Below are positions 221 to 16,245 of a DNA stretch of 64,000 nucleotides, in pieces. Numbering within the stretch: the first letter of the stretch is position 1; every line of letters begins with the position of its first letter. The notes under the pieces are model-generated. The model saw only the letters and a list, made by a program, of their open reading frames with translations. It ran no database searches and was not told the DNA's origin. Origin of the DNA: a bacterium (GTDB lineage Bacteria > UBA8248); NCBI GenBank assembly GCA_965204535.1, contig CBDBEV010000001.1, positions 640,001-704,000 of the forward strand, in the 5' to 3' direction. Made by a program: the position numbers and the translations under genes.

Positions 221-325
221 GGGGTTGCCTCCTCGGTCGGACGCCGGCGCTCACCGGCACGGTTTTGTGGTTCCTCTACCGAGGATGCACCCCTCCAATT
301 TTTCCAGCAAGTTTAGGACTTCACC
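1..325 (-). mobile_element. IS256-family insertion sequence, left end (continues beyond window start)
   Basis: Transposase N-terminus on the minus strand; probable terminal sequence ggtgaagtcctaaacttgctggaaaaa ending near 325, after which composition turns AT-rich. Confidence 0.7.
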
Positions 326-424
326 TCTTAATCTGGATTCGAACGAAAGTAATGTATTGGTTTTGACAATCGTGCATGGTAAATTTAGTTATGTAGGACG
401 TTAAAGGAAATCGAAGGAGAGTCC

Positions 425-2233
425 TTGCAAGTCGCACTGCTTAAGATCGAGAATTTTCGGGGAATCCGGTCGGGTACAATACAGTTTCATAACCACACCG
501 TTCTGATAGGCCCTAACAACAGTGGTAAAACCACGATCATTGAGGCACTAGCGCTCGTGCTGGGCCGGGAGCGTCTGGTGCGCACCTTGACCGAGCACGA
601 TTTTTTTGGATCGAATCCTCAACCCGCTGATCGGATTAGCATCTTGGCAACGATCACGGGGTTCGAGCCGGAGGATTTTACAGCACACCCTGACTGGTTC
701 CGTGATGGACGTGGCGTTCCGAAATGGTTCGACCCTCAGACGGGAGAAGTGGTCGCCGAGCAAACGCATGAGAACCAATCGCTTGCGTGCCAGATCGCAT
801 TCGCCGCTCGATTTGACCATGAAAGCATAGAGGTCGAGACCGCTCGGTATTTTCACGATGACTCGGGTTTCGATGTTTTCGCGGAAGAAGGCTTTGTCAC
901 GGTTCCCCCAAAGCTTATCCGTGATGTCGGCTTTTTCCTCATTCCCGCAAGTCGCTCCTGGGATCGCATGCTTTCGTTCGGCTCCGAACTGTTCAGACGA
1001 GTAATTCGTACGGCTGGAGGATTGCCAGCGGAAACGGTCCTGGCCGAACGGGACCGATTGCGTAGTCCACAACAGCGGCTTGAAGACGATGAACGAATCC
1101 AGCCGATTGTAGATGAAGTCAATGCTGAGATCACGAATCTGTTGGGATTGGACATCAACCTGCAACTGAGGCTGACGGCAACGGACAGTAACAGCGTGCT
1201 CGAATCCATCGTGCCACATTTCCTGACCGGAGGGGAGCATGCTGTGCCATCGAAGCGAGAAGGGAGTGGTTTGATTTCGCTGCAAGTCCTGTTCTTGCTC
1301 TTACACTTCGGACAAAAACGACTCGAGAACGGCGAGAGTTTTTGTATGGCGCTTGAGGAGCCAGAGCTCCACCTTCCGCCAGCTGCACAGCGTCGAGTGC
1401 TGTCGCGTCTGCAATCACTTTCAACGCAAACGATTGTATCGACACACTCACCGTTAGTTGCAGGGTACTGCGATGCAACGGCTCTACTCGTTATCCGGAA
1501 TGACAGTGGTATGCTCAGCGCAGTACCGATGCTTGAACGACCTCTTGGGCAAGATGCGACAAACGCGATACGCAAGCTCTTCCAGATCAACCGGGTCGAA
1601 ACAGCGGCGGCAATGATGTGCGAATATATTATCGTGCCGGAAGGTAAGCTGGATTTCGACTGGCTGAGCCTTCTGATGCGGGCTGTAGAACTTGAGAAGG
1701 ATTCCGAGGAACTGTGCATGTTTGGCGTCCGGGTCGGATTGGTTCCGACAGGCGATGCAAAGATCAAGGAAACCTGCGAAATGCTCAGCAAGGCACACCC
1801 CAAGGTCTGTGCATTGGTAGACGGAGATACGGAAGGCAAGCGTTATGCGAGAGAGTTGGCTGAGCCCACTGCCGGTGTGGGTAAGGTGCTTTGTTGGCCG
1901 GATGAATGGATGATTGAAGATGTGGTTGGCTGGATAATTGAGGCGGATGAAGCTGAGGTGATGGAGCGATTAAGCAGGGAACTTGACGGCGTGACTGGTG
2001 ATCGTGCGGAACTCGTAGCGCAACTGAAATCCTATGATCGCACCCGATACGGGATGAAAGGCGATCTCATCGCTTATGAGGTTATTGCCAACGCCCTAGC
2101 TGATAATCCATCGTGCTTGCAGCGTGCACGCACAATGCTCCATGCGCTTGCTCAAGTATGCGCTGGTGAAACTACCCCGTATTTCGAGCAAGTGCGGGAC
2201 GATACCGTGTCTGGTTTGGTATTTAGACCATGA
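425..2233 (+). CDS. OLD-family ATP-dependent nuclease (ABC ATPase + TOPRIM), GajA-like
   Basis: IENFRGI, Walker A GPNNSGKT, Walker B LEEPELHLPP, H-loop STHSP, TOPRIM IVPEGKLD and LVDGD; GAAGGAG RBS before TTG. Confidence 0.85.
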   Translation: MQVALLKIENFRGIRSGTIQFHNHTVLIGPNNSGKTTIIEALALVLGRERLVRTLTEHDFFGSNPQPADRISILATITGFEPEDFTAHPDWFRDGRGVPKWFDPQTGEVVAEQTHENQSLACQIAFAARFDHESIEVETARYFHDDSGFDVFAEEGFVTVPPKLIRDVGFFLIPASRSWDRMLSFGSELFRRVIRTAGGLPAETVLAERDRLRSPQQRLEDDERIQPIVDEVNAEITNLLGLDINLQLRLTATDSNSVLESIVPHFLTGGEHAVPSKREGSGLISLQVLFLLLHFGQKRLENGESFCMALEEPELHLPPAAQRRVLSRLQSLSTQTIVSTHSPLVAGYCDATALLVIRNDSGMLSAVPMLERPLGQDATNAIRKLFQINRVETAAAMMCEYIIVPEGKLDFDWLSLLMRAVELEKDSEELCMFGVRVGLVPTGDAKIKETCEMLSKAHPKVCALVDGDTEGKRYARELAEPTAGVGKVLCWPDEWMIEDVVGWIIEADEAEVMERLSRELDGVTGDRAELVAQLKSYDRTRYGMKGDLIAYEVIANALADNPSCLQRARTMLHALAQVCAGETTPYFEQVRDDTVSGLVFRP

Positions 2234-3516
2234 CCGTTACCGCCTTCGAAGGTCCGGCCGGTACGGGGAAGACCCATAGCCTAATGGAACAACTCGCAGG
2301 TGCAGTCGAAAGGAATGCACTGGCTTCCCATGAGCGCGTTCTGGCGCTGACCTTTATGCATGGATCGAGACGGCGGCTCGATACGCGACTGCGTGAGATC
2401 GAAGCGCTCAGCGGGCGGTTCCAAGCGTCGACGTTGGATAGCTTTGCTTGGCGGCTGTGCCAGCGGTGGCGTTCACTTGCCCAGAGTCTCGGTCATGCCA
2501 TCCCTTCCGAAGGAAATTTTGACTTGACCTGCTCGCTCGCTGCTGCTTTGCTGGCCCGACCTGCTGTTAGCGCTTGGGTCTGTGCGTCCTATCCTTTCAT
2601 CGTCGTCGATGAGGCGCAGGATCTTAGCACCGAGCGATCCATGATGATCCAAGAAGCGGCGGTAGCATGTCATGTCCTACTAGCTTTCGATGAGTTCCAA
2701 TGCCTAAACCCGACCCTGCGCCCGATACCGATTCAGACATGGCTGCCGGAATTCTGCGAGCCTGTAAAACTTGATACATGCCGTCGTACCGAGGATGCCG
2801 AATTGCTTGAAGCGGCGCGGGCCGTGCGAGATGGACGCTCGGTAGATCGGGACGGACGGAGCTTTAAATTGGCGGTGACACCGGGCCGCCCCCAATATGC
2901 AGCCACTTACTTGGCAAATTTCATCGCTTGGCGTCGCGGCGGCAATGTCGCAGTGCTTACGCCGGCCCGTCGCGGCTTCGCCACCGACATTGTCGATCTT
3001 GTGCGAGCGGGGCCACTTGGAAAGAGTCGCCATGGACCGTTCCCGATCGAATGGGAAAACAGTGACGCAGCCGAACGCGATGCACTATGGGAAGGTTTGG
3101 CGATGCCTGCAAACTGCAACGTCTCCGATGCGCTTGCGCACCTGGAACCACACAGCCATTTGCCTGCAGTGAAGAGTTCCATGGAGTGGATCGGTCGTCA
3201 GCGGCGTGTTCTTGGCACCGACGAGTTCACGGCCAATGAAATCCAACGGCAGATTGACCGGGGGCTGGCGGCACGGCGTCACTATGGGAGCAGTGCTCGT
3301 ACGGAATACAGTGCGATGACGATCCATCAAGCGAAGAACCGGGAATTCGATCACGTTGTCATCATATGGCCGTACACGGTCCCAAGCGATGATGAGCAAA
3401 AGAGGCGATTGCTCTATAACGCGCTTACGCGTGCACGACGTAGTTGTCTAGTCCTAGTCCAGGCCCAGAAATTGGCTGATGCCCCTCCATTCGTGGGCGA
3501 AGCGGTTGTAGCCTGA
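2230..3516 (+). CDS. Short UvrD/Rep SF1 helicase, GajB-like
   Basis: GPAGTGKT, LALTF, VVDEAQD, TIHQAKNREFD, LLYNALTRAR; ATGA overlap with the upstream nuclease gene. Confidence 0.85.
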   Translation: MTVTAFEGPAGTGKTHSLMEQLAGAVERNALASHERVLALTFMHGSRRRLDTRLREIEALSGRFQASTLDSFAWRLCQRWRSLAQSLGHAIPSEGNFDLTCSLAAALLARPAVSAWVCASYPFIVVDEAQDLSTERSMMIQEAAVACHVLLAFDEFQCLNPTLRPIPIQTWLPEFCEPVKLDTCRRTEDAELLEAARAVRDGRSVDRDGRSFKLAVTPGRPQYAATYLANFIAWRRGGNVAVLTPARRGFATDIVDLVRAGPLGKSRHGPFPIEWENSDAAERDALWEGLAMPANCNVSDALAHLEPHSHLPAVKSSMEWIGRQRRVLGTDEFTANEIQRQIDRGLAARRHYGSSARTEYSAMTIHQAKNREFDHVVIIWPYTVPSDDEQKRRLLYNALTRARRSCLVLVQAQKLADAPPFVGEAVVA

Positions 3517-3857
3517 TCGTCCTGAATCAAGGCGATAACGGGTAGTCTTCATATCAGAGAGGCATTTTCGATGAGCAAGGTTTCAATCGCGAAAGCGGCA
3601 GCATCTTCTAGTGAGCATTGTTAACGTATCCTTGCTTAAGCAATATGTTAAGCACAAACTTGACTAGAATTGGCTAGAATTCGCTTACACAGATGTATGT
3701 CGCTTACTGCTAGACCTGTGCCAATCATACTTTTACATATGCTCATCTTAGTATTCTGCAATGATTAATAGAGTTAAAAAATGGGAATTATATAGGTGAG
3801 TAAGCAGACACCCCGCAAGGGGCGCTCCCCCCGGCGGGTTTCTATAGGAGTAAATCA

Positions 3858-4064
3858 ATGGATAGATTCAATCCTGAAAATTATCGATGGCCTGAATCGT
3901 GCTTTGAAGCTCCTTGGATAGAGCTCGGGCTTGATCCAGTTGAATATCATAAGAAGTATGGAGGGCGCATGCCTGTTGTTTCAGGGATTCCTCTGGATCA
4001 TCCGATAAGTGTTCTACAGAGGAAAAACCAAAAACAACAAGTCGGTGAGGAAAATCAGCCGTAA
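3858..4064 (+). CDS. Small hypothetical protein (transposon cargo)
   Basis: 68 aa ORF with TAGGAG RBS, followed by a terminator-like hairpin. Confidence 0.55.
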   Translation: MDRFNPENYRWPESCFEAPWIELGLDPVEYHKKYGGRMPVVSGIPLDHPISVLQRKNQKQQVGEENQP

Positions 4065-4134
4065 TATTCCAGTTTGTGATTATACGGGTTGTGCGGTCGT
4101 TCACGGTTCATCCTCCTTTTTGTTGGACAGACTG

Positions 4135-4175
4135 CGGCCCCGGAGTGTTGGGTTCTCCGGGGCCGTTTTTCTTCT
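4135..4175. terminator. Intrinsic terminator between convergent cargo genes
   Basis: CGGCCCCGGAG...CTCCGGGGCCG stem followed by TTTTTCTT. Confidence 0.6.
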
Positions 4176-4186
4176 TGTTGCCGATT

Positions 4187-4486
4187 CTACCTTCCGCGAA
4201 GCCTGAGCGCACATCCCTTGTTGTACTGGTAGCACTGGAGCAACATGTTGCGCTCGTCGGCCTGATCTTGGCGGTGCAGATCGTACTTCTGCTGAGGCGT
4301 CAGGCCGAAGCTGCGGGTGTAGGGCTTGGTTCCGTAGGGGTCGGACGGATTGTATTGGCACTGTTGCTGGTAGCTCCGTTGCTTGTGTGGCTGTGGGTAC
4401 AACGGTGTCCAGTATGGGCTCTGGACGGCCGCGATCGTCGGCACCAGAAGTGATATTGCAAAAGCCAGTGTAATTATGTGTTTCAT
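4187..4486 (-). CDS. Small secreted Q/Y/P-rich protein (99 aa)
   Basis: MKHIITLAFAISLLVPTIAA signal-peptide-like start; AGGGGG RBS; directly downstream of the YHYH-like gene. Confidence 0.6.
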   Translation of the reverse strand: MKHIITLAFAISLLVPTIAAVQSPYWTPLYPQPHKQRSYQQQCQYNPSDPYGTKPYTRSFGLTPQQKYDLHRQDQADERNMLLQCYQYNKGCALRLRGR

Positions 4487-4497
4487 GGGCATTCCCC

Positions 4498-4641
4498 CTA
4501 ATGACAGTGGTAGCTGACGCGGACGCCATTGACCCAAACCCAATGGCACCCTGAGAAGTTCTTGCCTCCACCATGCGCTGCCGCGAGCGCGGGCGCCAGG
4601 AGCAAAACGGTAATGAAGACGATTCCGGCCAATGTACGCAT
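4498..4641 (-). CDS. Secreted YHYH-domain-like peptide (47 aa)
   Basis: Signal peptide then AHGGGKNFSGCH...YHCH, matching the HxGG..xGCH...YHCH pattern; GGGAGGGAG RBS. Confidence 0.65.
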   Translation of the reverse strand: MRTLAGIVFITVLLLAPALAAAHGGGKNFSGCHWVWVNGVRVSYHCH

Positions 4642-5036
4642 ATGCACTCCCTCCCGGTCGCGAGTCCGGGCGCACCACGCACCCGGAAGTGCTCGCTCGT
4701 TGTGATGTACGGTGGGGTATGCTAGAACCGATGGTTCAACTGGTTGAATGGTGGCTAACCCCACCACGTGGGAGTCTCGGTTCCAGCCGGGGCTCCCACG
4801 CTCTTATTCTTTTGTTTTCCCGACAGCGCCGGGCCTTAGCATCGTCACAAGTAGTATGTGAAGTCCCGCCTATTCACCTTTTGCCAGGGGAGCTACCCCC
4901 GGTCGGGTTCAAGGCTGTTTTATTCGGCGAGTGACCCGACTAGAAGGTATCGGGTTCTACTCGCGACAATGCTATCCTGTGAATATGGGCAAAACGAGGT
5001 CGCTTGTTAAATGTCCAAAAGGGGTGGTGACGCCGT

Positions 5037-5065
5037 TTGACACAACGTGAGTCAAGCCAGATAAT
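5037..5065 (+). promoter_or_regulatory. Sigma70-like promoter with an overlapping palindrome
   Basis: TTGACA-N17-GATAAT; TTGAC...GTCAA inverted repeat overlaps the -35 box and spacer. Confidence 0.65.
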
Positions 5066-5096
5066 CGAAGTCCTGACAAAAAGGAGGGCGGATATC

Positions 5097-5228
5097 ATGG
5101 CTACCACCCAGAAGAAACCCCGCGGACGACCACCCAAGAAAATCATCCCACCGATACCACGGACGCCCGAGCAGGTCGCCAAGGCCATATTCGACGCCAA
5201 CGACAAGAAGCTACAGAAGACGGGCTGA
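5097..5228 (+). CDS. 43-aa basic protein with AT-hook-like motif
   Basis: MATTQKKPRGRPPKK...; AAGGAGG RBS and canonical promoter upstream. Confidence 0.65.
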   Translation: MATTQKKPRGRPPKKIIPPIPRTPEQVAKAIFDANDKKLQKTG

Positions 5229-5514
5229 GCCGAGAGGGCCGCTTTCTACGTAGGTTTTGAGTTCCTCGTGTTTCCTGCGTTGGCCGGTGGCCTGCCGCCC
5301 CTCTTGACAACGTCCGTAGCTTGTGGCTCAACGGATGAATGGTTAGATGAACAACCTCTTGTGTAATGCCTCCTTGGTCGGGAGGGGAGGCGCGAGAAAG
5401 GGGTTTATTATAACGAAGGTCAGGAGAGGGCTGTTGTTGGTTCTGCCCATTATGGCGATACGTGACGGGACTGCCCAGGGGGCCCTCTCCGGGCCGCGGG
5501 GACACTAATAAAAA

Positions 5515-5787
5515 ATGAGTCATACCTTGCTGGTGTTGCAAATGATATTGTTGCTCGTTCAAATTATAGGTGTATTTCTGCTTTATTATTATTGGAACTC
5601 ATTTGACACCCCACCCCCAAACGCTTTGATTGTATCAATGAGTGCAGTGCAGACCGTTTTGTCTGTGATGGTGGTTGTACTCATAATTGGGGGAACATGG
5701 GTGATACAAAAAGTATTAGAACAGGAAAAAACCAAAGAAAGAGGCTCAATTTCAATTTCTGCTTCTCAAAATAAGGAGGAGGATTAA
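5515..5787 (+). CDS. Small two-TM membrane protein (low-GC cargo)
   Basis: Two hydrophobic stretches; first of three tightly packed AT-rich ORFs. Confidence 0.55.
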   Translation: MSHTLLVLQMILLLVQIIGVFLLYYYWNSFDTPPPNALIVSMSAVQTVLSVMVVVLIIGGTWVIQKVLEQEKTKERGSISISASQNKEED

Positions 5788-5791
5788 GACA

Positions 5792-6109
5792 ATGAAAATT
5801 TGGGGCTCTGAGCAGGATGCTATTGATTACTTGCAAGGGCAAGTAGATCTCTGCCTCACAATCATTTTTTTTCTGGTCAGGGAAGGGTCTTTTAATAAAA
5901 AAACGCTAGAAAAAAACATTACGGACACTCTCTCTCGAAATATCGATATATACACCCCTAGCAGAATGAAAGGATTCAAAAATTCTTCCAATACGATTTT
6001 AGGGGAAGATGCTTTTGTAGGTAGAAGTGAGAAATTCTATGACATGCAAACCTATGACATACTAGGACTAGCTGATACCTTGAAGTTGAATCCAGAGAAA
6101 TGGTCTTAG
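5792..6109 (+). CDS. Hypothetical protein (low-GC cargo)
   Basis: 105 aa, GGAGGAGG RBS, 4 nt after the previous stop. Confidence 0.55.
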   Translation: MKIWGSEQDAIDYLQGQVDLCLTIIFFLVREGSFNKKTLEKNITDTLSRNIDIYTPSRMKGFKNSSNTILGEDAFVGRSEKFYDMQTYDILGLADTLKLNPEKWS

Positions 6110-6110
6110 G

Positions 6111-6395
6111 ATGAATGAAGCAGATATCGAAAAAATCAAGACAGATATTCGAAATATTGAAGTAAACCAACATGCGATACACGTTCTGATTCTTTTGCTA
6201 TTTACCTTCTCTGCGCCATCTAAAGATCTGCACGTATTGATAGAAAAATTTATGCGTTTGCTCGCAGTTACCCGAGATGGCTCAAATGTTGAAATTCTTG
6301 ATTTAAGCAAGGAAGCCCTTGAGGATATAAAAAAATTTTTCAGAGATATTCAAGAAACTTTAAATGAGCAGAGAGCGGAAAAGAATGATGCCTAA
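6111..6395 (+). CDS. Hypothetical helical protein (low-GC cargo)
   Basis: 94 aa, starts 1 nt after the previous stop; its stop overlaps the convergent transposase stop. Confidence 0.55.
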   Translation: MNEADIEKIKTDIRNIEVNQHAIHVLILLLFTFSAPSKDLHVLIEKFMRLLAVTRDGSNVEILDLSKEALEDIKKFFRDIQETLNEQRAEKNDA

Positions 6396-7030
6396 TTAGT
6401 GAGCTTCGCCCATGTAAGCCTTTTGCCCTCGAACCCCCGGACCACCGTGCCCATACGTTCGGCCGTCCCGAGCAAGCGGGTGTTGTGACGGCCGACAAAC
6501 TCCTGAACATAGCGATGCAGATGCCGGCGGTTCCAGAAGTGGTACGTTCCCTTGAAGCCGCGGCCGAGATTCTGTTTCTTGCGCCAGTGCTTGTTGCGCT
6601 CTAGGCCCCCGACGTACGTCTCATCGACTTCAACGGGGCCCTCTATCATGGCCTCGCCCTGCATCCAGCCTTCACGGATTCGGTGGCCCATAAACCAGGC
6701 GGTCCTCTGCGTGACGTCCAAGTATTCGGCCAGCCTGGTGCTCGGTATGCCCTTAGGGTTGGTGGTCAGCAGAAATATGGCGATGGCCCACTTGCGGAGC
6801 GGCAGCTTGGACCGGTGCATCGGCGTTCCGGTCCGGACACTGAAATGACGCCGGCAATCAGCGCACCAGTACGGTAGGGGTTTCTTGTTGGGGGCTGGCG
6901 ACACGTTGGTCGAGCCGCAACACGGGCAGATGAGCCCATCCTTCCAACGGACCCGTTCGAACCACTGGCGCGCCGCTTCATCGTCTGGGAACGTGTTGAG
7001 AATCTGTAGCAAAGGTATTCGTAGGGGCAT
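6392..7030 (-). pseudogene. IS1595-family transposase with in-frame internal deletion
   Basis: Zn ribbon CPCCGS...YWCADC, FSVRTGT, VEVDETYVGG, then LGRG joined directly to FKGTYH...HLHRYVQEF; central catalytic segment absent; only 212 aa. Confidence 0.85.
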
Positions 7031-7274
7031 TTCGGGAACCTCCCCATCGTTTGGGTGAAAGTTACCATTCCCGAAAAACGCAATGTGAACACAATATCGG
7101 TCGGCAGGTTGATTCTGTCAAATGTGTGATATGATCGGTTGAAATGAGGACGCACCCTTGCCAAGGGGTGTGAAGCGCTACAGAAAAGACAGGGATGTCC
7201 TTTCTGTAACGCATTCCTCGAAAAAATGCAAGTCCATTTTTACGGAGAAGATGCGCCTACAGGAGGGGAGAGAA

Positions 7275-7445
7275 ATGCAAATACCAGACATCCGACCGTT
7301 CCATGAATATCCTATCAGAGATCCTCTCCCTGAACCTGTCCGTCACAAAGTAAAAATCGTTCTAGACCGCTTGTGTTTCCAAAAACGATTGGAAGAACTT
7401 GAGGAAAAGTATAGTGACTGGGGCCGAAAAGACTGGTATCCATAA
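7275..7445 (+). CDS. Small hypothetical protein
   Basis: 56 aa from ATG 7275 with AGGAGGGGAG RBS. Confidence 0.45.
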   Translation: MQIPDIRPFHEYPIRDPLPEPVRHKVKIVLDRLCFQKRLEELEEKYSDWGRKDWYP

Positions 7446-7455
7446 GGAGAAGAAA

Positions 7456-7644
7456 ATGGGATCGGAAACAAAAGGCAAAACTCGCGCCGTAGACTTCATC
7501 CATATCGTTCCAGAAGAAGGTATTGTTACTGTGAAATTCAAGGATGGCGCTGAGGCAAGAATACCTAAAGACGGCCTAGAGCTTATACAAATGAAGGTTG
7601 GTGATATCGTTCTCCAGGCCAGCAGATCAGTTGAGCCCGAGTAG
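7456..7644 (+). CDS. Small hypothetical protein
   Basis: 62 aa with AAGGAG RBS; ends just before the right TIR. Confidence 0.5.
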   Translation: MGSETKGKTRAVDFIHIVPEEGIVTVKFKDGAEARIPKDGLELIQMKVGDIVLQASRSVEPE

Positions 7645-7974
7645 CCTTTGCTTACTCACCTATATAATTCCCTAAAAAATAGTGTTGCCAGAAACGGGGA
7701 AGTTCTGAAAATCATATTTTCAATATGCTAAAATTTGTAGCGATAGGATTTGAACCTGCGATCTTGATGCGAAGAACCTAAATGACCTGTTCTGCACATT
7801 TCTCTCGCAACGTTTACGAAAATCTATATTCTTTGGTGGTGGTAACCTGGTGAAGCTACACGAAGTTCTGCTCTTGTCATTCAGCTATCTTGCCAAGCCC
7901 TCATGGACTCTTTTTCACGGTCTCTGCTCGAGGCATGATGTCTCACCTAACTTCACATGAGCGGTTTTTCGATT

Positions 7975-9144
7975 TTAGCCCATGATTTCGGCAGCGATGC
8001 TCTTCGCGATCCGCTCCGCCGTCTCGCGCACCGATTCGCGCGACAGGTGAGCGTAGCGCGCCGTGGTCTCGACCTGGGCGTGGCCGAGCAGTTTCCCGAT
8101 CATCGGCAGGCTCTCGCCAAGCGCCAGCGCCCTGGATGCGAAGGAATGGCGCAGGTCGTGGAGCCGGACGTCTGAGAGACCCGCGCGCGTCCGGACGGTC
8201 TGCCAGGCGTCGTCGAGTTCGGTCATGTGCGTTCCCGGCCTCTTGCCGTGGATGACCCACAGATTGCCCTCGATGCGCGGGAGTTCCGCGAGGAGCTTCA
8301 CCGCCCGCGGCGAGAGCGGGACTACCCGCGCGCCCGTCTTGGCGTCGGGGAGCCTCAGTTCATTCTCCTCAAGCGCCACGTCCTCCCACCTTAATTTCAG
8401 TATCTCGTTCTTCCGGCACCCAGTCAGCATCAGGAGCCGGATGGCGGCCACCGCGGGCGCCGTGGCGCCTCCTCTTGTCCCGACCTCATCAAGCGTCTGC
8501 CCCAGGCGCGTGAATTCCTTGTCGGTCAGGAACCTCTCCCGCCTGCGCTCGGGGTGTTTGGTGATCGAGCGGCAAGGGTTCATTCCTTCCGGAACGAGTC
8601 CCCACTCACCGGCCAGGCGGTACATCAGGGAGAGGGTGCGGAGCGCCATGTTCGCGGCAACAGGCGTCGCGCACAGCCGCTGGTGCATCTCCGCGACCTG
8701 CGCGCGCTCGACCGCCGTGAGCGGCAGCTTCCCCAGGGCCGGCAGGATGTGCTTGCGGACCGCCGTGCGGACCGTCTCGAGGGTCTTCGGCTTGCACCGC
8801 ACCGCGGCGTATTCCGCGAGATACCTCCCGGCGAGTTCGGCCACGGTGGGGCCGCCGGCGGGCTTCTTCGGCTTGAGCGCCGCCTCATCGCCCGCCTTGA
8901 TCCGGGTGATGATCATGGCCGCCCTCTGGCGCGCCTGCTCGGCATGGACCACCCCGTACCGGCCGACCGCCACGCGCCTCGGTCCCTTGGGACCTCTTGC
9001 CTGGGCGACGTAGACCTTCGTCCCCGTGGGATAGACCCTGACGCCGAAGCCGGTGAGCTCCCTGTCCCAGAACACGGTCTCTTTCTCGGTATCGAGCTTG
9101 CCGACCATGCGGTTCGAGAGCGTCCTGTACTTGAGTTTCGCCAT
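7975..9144 (-). CDS. Tyrosine recombinase/integrase with N-terminal Arm DNA-binding domain
   Basis: FWDRELTGFGVRV arm domain; LTGCRKNEI, HDLRHSFAS, LLGH...TTARY catalytic residues. Confidence 0.92.
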   Translation of the reverse strand: MAKLKYRTLSNRMVGKLDTEKETVFWDRELTGFGVRVYPTGTKVYVAQARGPKGPRRVAVGRYGVVHAEQARQRAAMIITRIKAGDEAALKPKKPAGGPTVAELAGRYLAEYAAVRCKPKTLETVRTAVRKHILPALGKLPLTAVERAQVAEMHQRLCATPVAANMALRTLSLMYRLAGEWGLVPEGMNPCRSITKHPERRRERFLTDKEFTRLGQTLDEVGTRGGATAPAVAAIRLLMLTGCRKNEILKLRWEDVALEENELRLPDAKTGARVVPLSPRAVKLLAELPRIEGNLWVIHGKRPGTHMTELDDAWQTVRTRAGLSDVRLHDLRHSFASRALALGESLPMIGKLLGHAQVETTARYAHLSRESVRETAERIAKSIAAEIMG

Positions 9145-9170
9145 ATCCGATTCTTCCTCCTCGTCCTGAT

Positions 9171-10352
9171 TCACTCTTGAGCGGTCTGAGCGCCAAGGTG
9201 GGTTCCGATGCTGTCGCCCACCCGGGCGGCCGCCGCCTTCTCCGCGTCGCGCATCAGGTGCGCGTAGCGCGCCGTGGTCGATACCTTGGCGTGGCCGAGC
9301 AGCTTGCCGATCGCGGTGAGACCCTCGCCCAGCGCCAGCGCCCTTGATGCGTAGGAGTGCCTGAGATCGTGGATCCGCACGTCATCGAGACCGGCCCTGG
9401 CCCTGATGCGTTTCCAGTAGGAAGTGATATCCAGGGGACGACCCGCCCCGTTACGCCCGGGGAACACCCAGGGGTTTCCGGGTGAGCGCGCGATGCCGTC
9501 CAGCACACGCCTCGCGGGCGTCGTCAGGGGGACCATGCGCGGACCCGTCTTGGCGTCCCGGAGCCTGAGTTCCCCCGCCGTGTGGTCCACGTCGTCCCAG
9601 CGAAGGTTCAGTATCTCGCTCTTCCTGCACCCGGTCAGCATCAACAGCCTGATCGCGGCGAGCGCGGGCGGCCATACCGACCCGTCCGCCTCCGCGTCCC
9701 TGAGCGTCCCGCCCAGGCGGCGGAACTCCTCATCGCTCAGGAAGCGCTCGCGCCGGCGCATGCTGTAGGGCCGCACCGCGCGGCAGGGATTGTTCCCGGG
9801 AGGGAGCAGTTCCCACGTCTCGGCCAGCGAGAACATCTTGGAAAGGACGCCGAGCGAACTGTTGGCCATATCGGGCGTGTCGCAAAGACGGTGGTGCAGC
9901 GCCGAGACTTCCGCTCGCCCGACCTGTTCGATCTCCATTCCGCCCAGGGCAGGCAGGATGTGTTTCTCGATCAGGTACCGGTATGATGCAATGGTGCCCG
10001 GTTTCAGATGCGTCTCGACATGGTCCCGCATGAAGCGTTCGGCCAGGCCGGACACGGTGAGCGCAGGCTCGGGCGGCTTCGGTGTGGGAGACTCTCCGCG
10101 CTTGATGCGGTCGATGACGGGGACGGCGCGTTTTCTCGCCTCGTCGGTCGACAGCTCCCCGTGCCGGCCGATAGTCACGCGCTTAGGTCCCCCCGGCCCG
10201 CGGGTCTGTACCACGTAGACCTTGCGACCCGTGGGGTGGACACGCACGCCAAAGCCGGCAAGGTCCCGGTCCCAGAAGACGGCGTCCTTGCCTTCGACTT
10301 CGAGTGCGTCGACGGCGCGCTTGGTGAGTTTGAGTTCGCTTTTTTTGGGCAT
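9171..10352 (-). CDS. Tyrosine recombinase/integrase with N-terminal Arm DNA-binding domain (paralog of the neighbour)
   Basis: FWDRDLAGFGVRV; LTGCRKSEI, HDLRHSYAS, LLGH...TTARY. Confidence 0.92.
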   Translation of the reverse strand: MPKKSELKLTKRAVDALEVEGKDAVFWDRDLAGFGVRVHPTGRKVYVVQTRGPGGPKRVTIGRHGELSTDEARKRAVPVIDRIKRGESPTPKPPEPALTVSGLAERFMRDHVETHLKPGTIASYRYLIEKHILPALGGMEIEQVGRAEVSALHHRLCDTPDMANSSLGVLSKMFSLAETWELLPPGNNPCRAVRPYSMRRRERFLSDEEFRRLGGTLRDAEADGSVWPPALAAIRLLMLTGCRKSEILNLRWDDVDHTAGELRLRDAKTGPRMVPLTTPARRVLDGIARSPGNPWVFPGRNGAGRPLDITSYWKRIRARAGLDDVRIHDLRHSYASRALALGEGLTAIGKLLGHAKVSTTARYAHLMRDAEKAAAARVGDSIGTHLGAQTAQE

Positions 10353-10548
10353 GATTTCTCTCCGCCTATTCGTAATCAAAACGTATACGAATGGCGTATA
10401 ACTGGAGCGTATTTAAGCATAAATATGGCGAAAACACAAGGGGGAAAAGACAGGGAGAAAAAAGAAATACTTGAGTAAAAACAAATATTTATATTAAAAC
10501 TAGAGGGTCAGTCGCATCATAGTCGGTAAGGCGGAATTTCATCCCTGT

Positions 10549-10784
10549 CTACCCCCCCTTGTCAGGGGGGTATGAAAAGGCGATGCTCGCCGCCGGTAGA
10601 GGGGTTTTTGTTTTTTCTTGCCCCCCCTGACAAGGGGGGGGGTCCGTAGGGGCGGCCCCCTGTGGCCGCCCGCCGGTCGTATTCACCCCGATACAGCAAG
10701 GGCGCGAGGGCCACGGACAGGCACGGGGGCCTGTCCCTACGGCGAACAATCTCTAAGGGCGGACAGGACTTATCCAACAACCCC
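10549..10784. repeat. REP/MITE cluster A (left end truncated)
   Basis: CCCCCCCTTGTCAGGGGGG / CCCCCCCTGACAAGGGGGG pair, inverted GTAG-type REP pair (10646-10671, 10715-10740), terminal TCCAACAACCCC. Confidence 0.85.
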
Positions 10785-15859: not shown

Positions 15860-16245
15860 GGGGTTGTTGGTAAAAGTCCTCGTTGGGGGATATTGTCTTT
15901 AGCAGGAAGACCGCTTTCGCGCTAACCCCAATCTCCCTCGTCGAAAGGCAACCCCCCCTACCCCCCCTTGTCAGGGGGGCAAGAAAAAGCAAACCCCCCT
16001 CAGCTAAAATGGCGCGAGGATTCAGGTATGGCGGTGTCGGGGGCAAGAAAAAGCAAACCCCTCTCAGCCCGGCGGGGGCGAATCGTCTTTTTATACCCTC
16101 CTGTCAAGGGGGGGTAGGGGGGGTTGGTTTCAACAGGCGAGGGGGTAATCAAACCGATCGAATAGGAGCCGCCCCGTAGGGACAGGCTCCCGTGCCTGTC
16201 CGACACCCCGACGAAGGACAACTACGGAGGGTTGCCCCTGCAGGT
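15860..16245. repeat. REP/MITE cluster B
   Basis: GGGGTTGTTGGTAAAAG left end, C7TTGTCAG6 palindromic pair, internal direct repeat GGGGGCAAGAAAAAGCAAACCCC, GTAGGGACAGG REP. Confidence 0.85.

What the first reader, a model, noticed from the sequence alone, without database searches (positions are those of the whole stretch)
3783..7672. 3.89-kb IS1595 cargo transposon packed with tiny ORFs
Seen: perfect 24-bp TIRs (GGGAATTATATAGGTGAGTAAGCA) and an intact 8-bp TSD (TAAAAAAT) enclose about nine ORFs of 43-105 aa in both orientations, with promoters, terminators and mixed GC. Known: IS1595-family elements make 8-bp TSDs and some carry passengers. Inference: a recently inserted, non-autonomous vehicle for microproteins. 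The ORF track alone does not reveal the element.
Basis: partly seen in the sequence, partly recalled or inferred. Interest (0 to 1): 0.72.

Follow-up and report, generated by a model that had tools for sequence, protein, structure and literature searches.

The report
Broken cargo transposon with antisense leader
This is a real jumping-gene insertion of a known family that has lost the middle of its own transposase and carries small passenger genes, two of them behind a folded RNA leader that likely works like the self-silencing immunity RNAs of phages.

Summary
The element is real: 24/24-bp inverted repeats, an 8/8-bp target duplication, identical cover by short-read contigs, and an empty site in a same-genus genome. 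It is an IS1595-family transporter IS. It is therefore predicted to be non-autonomous. It is not a microprotein specialist: sister elements carry 360-520-aa genes. Three of nine small ORFs have homologues; for six none was found. The most interesting part is non-coding: a covarying leader RNA (4974-4820, minus strand) ahead of two predicted secreted peptides. Its variable loop pairs with its own 5' end (best of 45 loops in 40 of 45 copies). It is a distant long relative of Rfam sRNA-Xcc1, found across many phyla, usually before exported-protein genes. Phage copies of canonical sRNA-Xcc1 show C4-type target sites on both sides (37 and 40 of 68, against 8% for controls). Processing and regulation are untested. 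This scan has already reported this leader several times on other DNA.

The parts
3775..3782 (+). left copy of the 8-bp target-site duplication
   Evidence: single copy of the target (one-base indel, one substitution) in G016/L002
3783..3806 (+). left terminal inverted repeat, 24 bp
3858..4064 (+). 68-aa ORF with Shine-Dalgarno-like motif; no family hit
   Evidence: one weak local tblastn hit (E 0.003)
4187..4486 (-). 99-aa ORF (101 from an upstream ATG) with signal-peptide-like N-terminus; homologue in another IS1595 element
   Evidence: (40% over 60 aa to L181)
4498..4641 (-). 47-aa YHYH-like peptide with signal-peptide-like N-terminus
   Evidence: 76% to L181; L181 copy passes NF033223, window copy is below cut-off; 14 synonymous against 8 amino-acid differences in 35 codons
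4711..4800 (-). second conserved module: GC-rich hairpin (4800-4767) followed by a long closed stem (4767-4711); role not established
   Evidence: z -4.0/-4.9 for the stretch 4700-4812; look-alikes in L048, L049, L052 and L181
4820..4940 (-). leader RNA core, long relative of sRNA-Xcc1: P1 4940-4933 with 4835-4828, P2-P4, variable loop A' 4854-4837
4957..4974 (-). seqA, 18 nt at the predicted transcript 5' end, complementary to A'
4982..5010 (-). predicted sigma-70-type promoter of the leader (9/12)
   Evidence: TTGAC-type -35 at the same distance in many homologues
5037..5065 (+). predicted sigma-70-type promoter (11/12) of the 43-aa ORF
5097..5228 (+). 43-aa basic proline-rich ORF recurring in IS1595 elements
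   Evidence: all 3 HMM hits in G000 lie in IS1595 elements (seeds included); also L175, L176, L079 and L177
5515..6395 (+). low-GC (0.37) run of three ORFs: 90 aa (two hydrophobic segments), 105 aa, 94 aa; no homologue found
   Evidence: 105 aa; 94 aa
6392..7030 (-). IS1595 transposase, 212 aa; zinc ribbon, first catalytic motif and C-terminus kept; in-frame deletion of about 90-97 aa at about 6557-6565
   Evidence: deletion present in contigs of runs X1 and X2
7093..7121 (-). predicted promoter of the transposase (10/12)
7275..7644 (+). two ORFs, 56 aa and 62 aa, with strong Shine-Dalgarno-like motifs; no homologue found
   Evidence: (62 aa)
7649..7672 (-). right terminal inverted repeat, 24 bp
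7673..7680 (+). right copy of the 8-bp target-site duplication

Best explanation
The 3,890-bp stretch is an IS1595-family transporter IS, inserted at an AT-rich 8-bp site between a Gabija-like gene pair and two integrases, whose transposase has lost its catalytic middle so that it is predicted to move only with a helper enzyme, and whose two predicted secreted peptides are likely gated by a C4-type self-antisense leader RNA. Shown: repeats, duplication, empty site in a relative, the deletion, the same cargo module in an element with other ends, the leader's covarying fold and the private complementarity between its loop A' and its own seqA. Inferred: (1) an intact ancestor inserted and the in-frame deletion followed, through short homology between two Arg-Gly codon pairs; (2) cargo travels as promoter-leader-gene modules exchanged among IS1595 elements; (3) the new transcript first folds seqA onto A', which excludes stem P1; host processing, likely by RNase P, would release the roughly 115-nt P1-closed RNA, whose open loop would then bind seqA of later transcripts and damp the downstream genes, giving a burst on arrival in a new cell and self-repression afterwards. 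Element identity about 0.95; antisense mechanism about 0.5.
For: Empty site. Deletion of the second acidic motif and the Glu motif, seen in two samples. Leader + YHYH peptide + second secreted ORF in the same order in L181, with different ends, transposase and seqA. Fold: 93.6% of cells paired, 104 double changes, 0/500 shuffles for four of five measures. Own loop is the best partner of own seqA in 40 of 45 de-duplicated copies, -28.3 against -12.6 kcal/mol; the window copy scores -29 on its own seqA and -6 to -14 on the other 12 tested in this genome. RCCA follows P1 in 46 of 108 copies, RCCN in 75; the host has RNase P RNA. Reciprocal similarity to sRNA-Xcc1 (8 of 20; 11 of 20). Canonical-type phage copies carry loop-complementary sites upstream in 37 of 68 and downstream in 40 of 68, against 8% for other loops. 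sRNA-Xcc1 was cloned as a discrete 88-nt RNA (PMC2996969, passages). Six of 7 repeat-bounded IS1595-type elements here (0.5% of the genome) hold 6 of the 16 leader copies.
Against: No RNA data were available. The window copy lacks the RCCA tail. A second target site over the ribosome-binding site is weak in the long form (own loop best in 5 of 45, top 5% in 9) and absent in the window copy (rank 29 of 40). In the long form seqA is adjacent and the cis fold is much more stable (-71 against -43 kcal/mol), which a purely cis role explains as well. The hairpin after the leader has its U-run on the opposite strand. Rfam C4 does not match and the window copy does not hit RF02221. The count of pairs with double changes was reached by 46/500 shuffles, and P1 and P3 barely vary, partly because the search pattern fixed those columns. 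51 of 79 long-flank leader loci have no IS1595 transposase within the DNA held. No intact transposase with matching ends was found, so the order of insertion and deletion is unknown.
Confidence: 0.55

Rival explanations
1. The element is as described, but the leader acts only in cis: seqA:A' closes a stable 5' domain that protects the mRNA or forms a two-state switch read by a protein or ligand at the conserved internal loop, with no released antisense RNA.
For: seqA is adjacent and pairs over about 18 continuous bp; cis fold -71 kcal/mol; weak downstream site; invariant unpaired A-rich loop residues; canonical copies lack an adjacent seqA (5 of 70), so the long form may have changed mechanism.
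Against: The sequence of seqA/A' differs between nearly all copies in one genome, as expected for private specificity; RCCA enrichment; the relative is a discrete sRNA with C4-type sites.
Confidence: 0.22
2. This copy is a decaying relic: the transposase is dead, most small ORFs are neutral captured DNA, and the leader no longer regulates anything here.
For: Single copy; deleted transposase; no homologue found for six ORFs; no RCCA; frameshifted or deleted transposases also in E4, L174, L175, L176, L177, L181.
Against: Perfect repeats and duplication; leader scores 98.7 bits on the family model it helped to build and keeps 18-bp seqA:A' pairing; synonymous bias in the 47-aa ORF; the deletion keeps the frame.
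Confidence: 0.15
3. One reading: a dedicated non-autonomous vehicle for microproteins that is mobilised in its present form by a transposase in trans.
For: All nine cargo ORFs are at most 105 aa; ends are intact; three intact IS1595 transposases exist in the genome; a solo end with 22/24 identity lies at C2:1733038.
Against: No second copy in G000, 50 other genomes of the phylum, or metagenome and viral collections by exact end patterns; helper candidates share only 16-18 of 24 end bases; sister elements carry large genes.
Confidence: 0.08

Closest known systems
IS1595-family transporter IS (tIS)
   Same: Single transposase with N-terminal zinc finger and DDE domain, 8-bp target duplication, ends starting GG, passenger genes (PMC8101967 and 10.1101/2021.05.26.445724, passages).
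   Different: Transposase internally deleted in frame; nine small passengers in several transcription units; passengers fronted by a structured leader. The end motif resembles the ISNwi group (recalled, not tested).
sRNA-Xcc1 (Rfam RF02221)
   Same: Same closing stem, same A-rich internal-loop core and same boundaries in 8 of 20 homologues tested; the model built here finds 11 of 20 canonical-type loci; carried by mobile elements upstream of a gene (symE in Xanthomonas cassettes, 10.1101/2025.06.18.660453, passages).
   Different: About 31 nt longer, 27-33 bits against a cut-off of 53; window copy not detected; open loop in place of the target hairpin; target adjacent at the 5' end; downstream genes mostly exported proteins. 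The papers seen treat sRNA-Xcc1 as a trans-acting, virulence-linked sRNA.
C4 antisense RNA of phages P1/P7 and CI RNA of P4
   Same: RNA closed by a stem, with single-stranded parts complementary to sites in its own transcript; processed by RNase P in C4 (PMC5320573, passages); seqA upstream and seqC downstream in P4 (PMC4825925, passage).
   Different: No match to RF01695; one continuous 18-nt site in place of bipartite a/b; downstream site weak; controls exported-protein genes, not antirepressor or replication genes; not in a prophage.
MIC / MITE non-autonomous IS derivatives
   Same: Intact ends without a functional transposase (PMC3129680, passage).
   Different: Retains two thirds of its transposase as an open frame; single copy.

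Membership tests
IS1595 family | DDE_Tnp_IS1595 domain and N-terminal zinc finger | tested here: met
   PF12760 32.5 bits, PF12762 31.5 bits; NF033547 79.6 bits, cut-off 75
IS1595 family | 8-bp target duplication and terminal inverted repeats | tested here: met
   empty site
IS1595 family (autonomous) | complete catalytic triad | tested here: not met
   only the first acidic motif is kept; about 90-97 aa missing
transporter IS (tIS) | passenger genes between the ends beside the transposase | tested here: met
   three passengers have homologues elsewhere
ISNwi subgroup | subgroup end motif and catalytic spacing as in ISfinder | not testable with these tools
   resemblance recalled; ISfinder is not available and the review asked for was not held
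sRNA-Xcc1 (RF02221) | score at or above the Rfam cut-off of 53 bits | tested here: not met
   window copy no hit; homologues 27-33 bits in 8 of 20
sRNA-Xcc1 (RF02221) | shared closing stem and internal-loop core | tested here: met
   alignments; reciprocal hits 11 of 20
C4/CI-type antisense RNA | sequence-structure match to RF01695 | tested here: not met
   one unrelated hit at E 3.2 in G000
C4/CI-type antisense RNA | cognate complementary site upstream in the same transcript | tested here: met
   40 of 45; 94 of 108 within the top 3 of 41
C4/CI-type antisense RNA | second cognate site downstream over the ribosome-binding site | tested here: inconclusive
   long form 9 of 45 in the top 5%, absent in the window copy; canonical-type copies 40 of 68
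C4/CI-type antisense RNA | release by RNase P and repression in trans | not testable with these tools
   RCCA in 46 of 108 copies, not in the window copy; no RNA run listed

The most novel reading that the evidence does not exclude
IS1595 transposons of marine host-associated bacteria act as a shared pool of surface- and secreted-protein cassettes, each fronted by a sequence-coded self-immunity RNA with a private 18-nt code. A cassette is expressed in a burst on arrival and silenced only by its own RNA, and the whole sRNA-Xcc1 family is a C4-type self-targeting immunity RNA rather than a trans-acting virulence sRNA.
Probability: 0.35. Interest if true: 0.72.

Novelty: new variant of a known kind. 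Interest (0 to 1): 0.47.

Why it matters
The element itself is an ordinary kind of object: IS1595 elements with passengers are described. What it adds is a clean, testable case of a leader RNA with a fixed scaffold and a variable loop matched to its own 5' end, spread over many phyla and placed mostly before exported-protein genes. If the antisense reading holds, phage-style immunity control has been taken over for transposon cargo, one genome runs about a dozen largely orthogonal RNA switches, and sRNA-Xcc1, whose targets have been sought elsewhere in the genome or in plant hosts, has its targets next door. That last point can be tested at once in laboratory strains.

Tried and rejected
Sister elements with the same ends: none by exact degenerate patterns in metagenome contigs or viral contigs; in 51 phylum genomes only G000 and one end in G008; the transposase scan of metagenome contigs gave 3 loci at 52-58% with other ends. 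The long-form leader pattern found nothing in viral contigs. Riboswitch or ribozyme readings: no Rfam family fits the window copy (best hit a generic two-hairpin match at 18 bits). Prophage context for non-IS copies: 131 of 266 neighbouring ORFs from 29 of 39 loci gave mostly housekeeping families and two integrases, no phage structural family at E 1e-10. Defence role of cargo: 0 of 9 hit PADLOC; PHROGs gave only weak membrane-type hits for the 90-aa ORF. Homologue searches returned only the query or nothing for the 47-, 105-, 94- and 62-aa ORFs; the 47-aa search missed the known L181 relative, so these blanks are weak. Atlas: unnamed hits below 0.9 for the 43-aa ORF; not answered for the 105-aa ORF. 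No RNA holder listed. Run X2 has no cover at 4520-4719; a hole proves nothing. An insertion hot spot shared with G018 was considered: its element lies before the same integrases but the flanking DNA differs. The 43-aa ORF as a universal accessory gene: found in 0 of 28 IS-linked and 1 of 51 other long leader loci with a four-seed HMM, so it marks a subset only. The first tblastn for that ORF used a wrong frame and was discarded. The original sRNA-Xcc1 paper (Chen 2011), Hartmann 1995 and the IS review were not held.
Full report
OBSERVATION. The arms 3783-3806 and 7649-7672 are perfectly complementary over 24 bases. They enclose 3,890 bp and are flanked by the same 8 bases on both sides. The stretch occurs once in the 4.56-Mb genome G000. 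Short-read contigs agree with the assembly: one contig of run X1 covers 2800-8132 without a difference, and run X2, a second sample of the same study, covers 2800-4519 and 4720-8132 without a difference; no joint across the element was listed in any of the 4 runs. X1 may be the source sample. Nine ORFs of 43-105 aa lie on both strands and GC runs from 0.37 to 0.60 by segment. Promoter-like sites are mildly above chance (8 against 4.1+-2.0, two of them outside the element); terminator-like sites are not (4 against 4.7+-2.2).

EMPTY SITE. Among 40 relatives searched, G016 matches both flanks and nothing between them. Its junction holds one copy of the target, with one substitution and a one-base indel. 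The flanks are 98% (left, window 325-3776) and 95% (right, 7676-10578) identical. The left flank is a GajA/GajB-like pair (PADLOC E 7e-57 and 2e-23); the right flank is two tyrosine integrases. Insertion by transposition after the split from G016 is the simplest reading.

THE MISSED TRANSPOSASE. A 212-aa ORF at 7030-6392 (-) carries the IS1595 zinc ribbon and the start of the DDE domain. Aligned with four intact relatives (43-54% identity), it keeps the N-terminal domains, the first acidic motif and the C-terminus, but lacks about 90-97 residues that hold the second acidic motif and the Glu motif. The deletion is in frame and joins two Arg-Gly positions; microhomology is inferred, since the cognate intact gene was not found. 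Catalytic death follows from the IS1595 DDE motif (PMC8101967, passages). G000 has four other IS1595 elements of 3.2-4.4 kb, each with its own ends and cargo, and two 1.1-kb elements with similar ends and no transposase. Three have full-length transposase frames; their ends share 16-18 of 24 bases with this element. No further copy of these ends in a pair was found. Passenger-carrying IS1595 elements are a described class, transporter IS (10.1101/2021.05.26.445724 and PMC11891212, passages).

CARGO. Three of nine small ORFs have relatives. The 47-aa ORF is YHYH-like: 76% identical to an ORF in L181 that passes NF033223, with 14 synonymous against 8 amino-acid differences over 35 codons. The 99-aa ORF matches the next ORF of L181 (40% over 60 aa). 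L181 is a different IS1595 element with other ends, so the module has been in two elements. The 43-aa ORF recurs in two other elements of G000 and in L175, L176, L177 and L079. For the other six, Pfam, NCBIfam, PADLOC and PHROGs gave nothing above cut-off, and database searches for three of them found nothing but the query. Sister elements carry 360-, 463- and 520-aa genes, so small size is a trait of this copy, not of the family.

THE LEADER RNA. A non-coding stretch at about 4820-4940 matched loci in many genomes of the genus. G-U pairs place the RNA on the minus strand, after a predicted promoter (5010-4982) and before the two secreted-type ORFs. Of the 79 loci with long flanks (15 shorter than 9 kb), 28 have an IS1595 transposase within the DNA held; 14 of 111 are bracketed by inverted repeats with a duplication. 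On 69 de-duplicated cores, four helices hold in 93.6% of cells with 104 double changes; 0/500 shuffles reach four of the five measures, 46/500 reach the fifth. A model built from them finds 16 copies in G000 at E<=0.01, 6 of them inside 6 of the 7 repeat-bounded elements, which make up 0.5% of the genome, and copies in 23 of 51 genomes of the phylum.

SELF-COMPLEMENTARITY. Between P2 and the 3' arm of P1 lies a variable loop of about 29 nt. In 108 scored copies (8 dropped for lack of the P2 3' arm) it pairs with its own upstream DNA at -28.8 kcal/mol against -15.3 for other loops; at most two of 40 other loops did as well in 94. With 45 de-duplicated loops, the own loop was best in 40. The paired stretch, seqA, is about 18 nt long and begins right after the predicted -10 element. 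Thirteen of the 16 copies in G000 have it, and the window's loop fits only its own. A second site near the downstream ribosome-binding site is clear in some copies but weak overall (9 of 45 in the top 5%) and absent here. RCCA follows P1 in 46 of 108 copies, though not in this one. Where a downstream ORF could be called (76 of 108), 52 begin with a hydrophobic stretch, against 372 of 2034 long ORFs of G000; the 49 scanned include porin-type barrels, CsgG, TbpB-like lipoproteins, peptidases and nucleases, and most have no Pfam hit.

RELATION TO KNOWN RNAs. The window copy hits no fitting Rfam family. Tested here: 8 of 20 homologues hit RF02221 at the same boundaries with 27-33 bits, below the cut-off of 53, and my model hits 11 of 20 canonical-type loci. 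To ask how the canonical RNA works, I fetched 120 viral loci with a consensus pattern; 16 of 20 checked pass the cut-off. They lack an adjacent seqA (5 of 70). But an exact complement of 6 or more bases to the hairpin loop lies 95-175 nt upstream in 37 of 68 and downstream, at the ribosome-binding site in many cases, in 40 of 68, against 8% for other loops. This is the layout described for C4 (PMC5320573, passages) and P4 CI (PMC4825925, passage). In the passages I saw (PMC2996969, PMC12189769, PMC7313666, 10.1101/2025.06.18.660453) sRNA-Xcc1 is treated as trans-acting or virulence-linked and no flanking targets are named; the searches were made, of which I saw listings, and the original 2011 paper was not held, so it may already say this. 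Searches for IS1595 with sponge symbionts or passenger genes (listings) showed no paper on this leader. The scan itself has reported it in at least nine other findings; these are AI notes and not independent support.

MECHANISM. Shown: element, deletion, module sharing, fold, private seqA:A' match. Inferred: the nascent RNA folds seqA onto A' (-71 kcal/mol) and so blocks P1; without seqA, P1 forms (-43). Processing would free the P1-closed RNA, whose loop would capture seqA of later transcripts and damp the cargo. A purely cis role, or decay of this copy, remain open.

VERDICT. A real, catalytically dead member of a known transposon class. The interest lies in the leader, a new variant of the sRNA-Xcc1/C4 kind, and in the flanking targets of canonical sRNA-Xcc1. 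Interest 0.47.

Noticed in passing
window 425-3516 (+): GajA/GajB-like pair (OLD-type ATPase 602 aa, UvrD-type helicase 428 aa) directly left of the insertion; present in G016 at 98% identity.
   Followed up: partly
window 7975-10379 (-): Two tandem tyrosine integrases, about 65% identical to each other; similar genes occur in many copies in this genus.
   Followed up: no
L190-L309 (viral contigs): Canonical sRNA-Xcc1-type RNAs have loop-complementary sites both upstream and over the next ribosome-binding site, a C4-type layout (37 and 40 of 68, control 8%).
   Followed up: partly
G000 C1:230420-233832 and about nine other places: A 3.4-kb element with perfect ends and varied 8-bp duplications is present in about ten copies, some in tandem; its ends resemble IS66 (recalled). 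It contrasts with the single-copy IS1595 elements.
   Followed up: no
G000 C2:1733038: Solo end with 22/24 identity to this element's repeat, no partner within 15 kb, next to a tRNA-like sequence.
   Followed up: partly
G000 C2:379399, C2:1585662, C2:2392990: Three near-identical short leader-like RNAs without an adjacent seqA, inside a repeated sequence; similar 88-nt repeats occur in G002.
   Followed up: no
G000 C1:83942-85002 and C2:508519-509608: Two 1.1-kb elements with IS1595-type ends and no transposase; each holds a small basic ORF, a short-form leader RNA and one cargo gene.
   Followed up: partly
G000 C1:38425-42864: IS1595 element with an intact transposase carrying methyltransferase-like ORFs in pieces and a 360-aa nuclease-like ORF (read from the translation, not scanned); the only one of the seven without a leader hit.
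   Followed up: no
L176:6753-9628 (G018): A different 2.9-kb IS1595 element sits before the same integrase pair, with unrelated flanking DNA.
   Followed up: partly
L175 and L177: Other IS1595 transposase remnants with internal deletions of different extent.
   Followed up: partly
window 7417-7444 and L175:3083-3110: A 28-base stretch is 93% identical between the two elements with unrelated surroundings; meaning unknown.
   Followed up: partly
window 10540-10640, 10714-10742, 15949-16202: Short G/C-rich palindromic repeats in several copies between genes.
   Followed up: no
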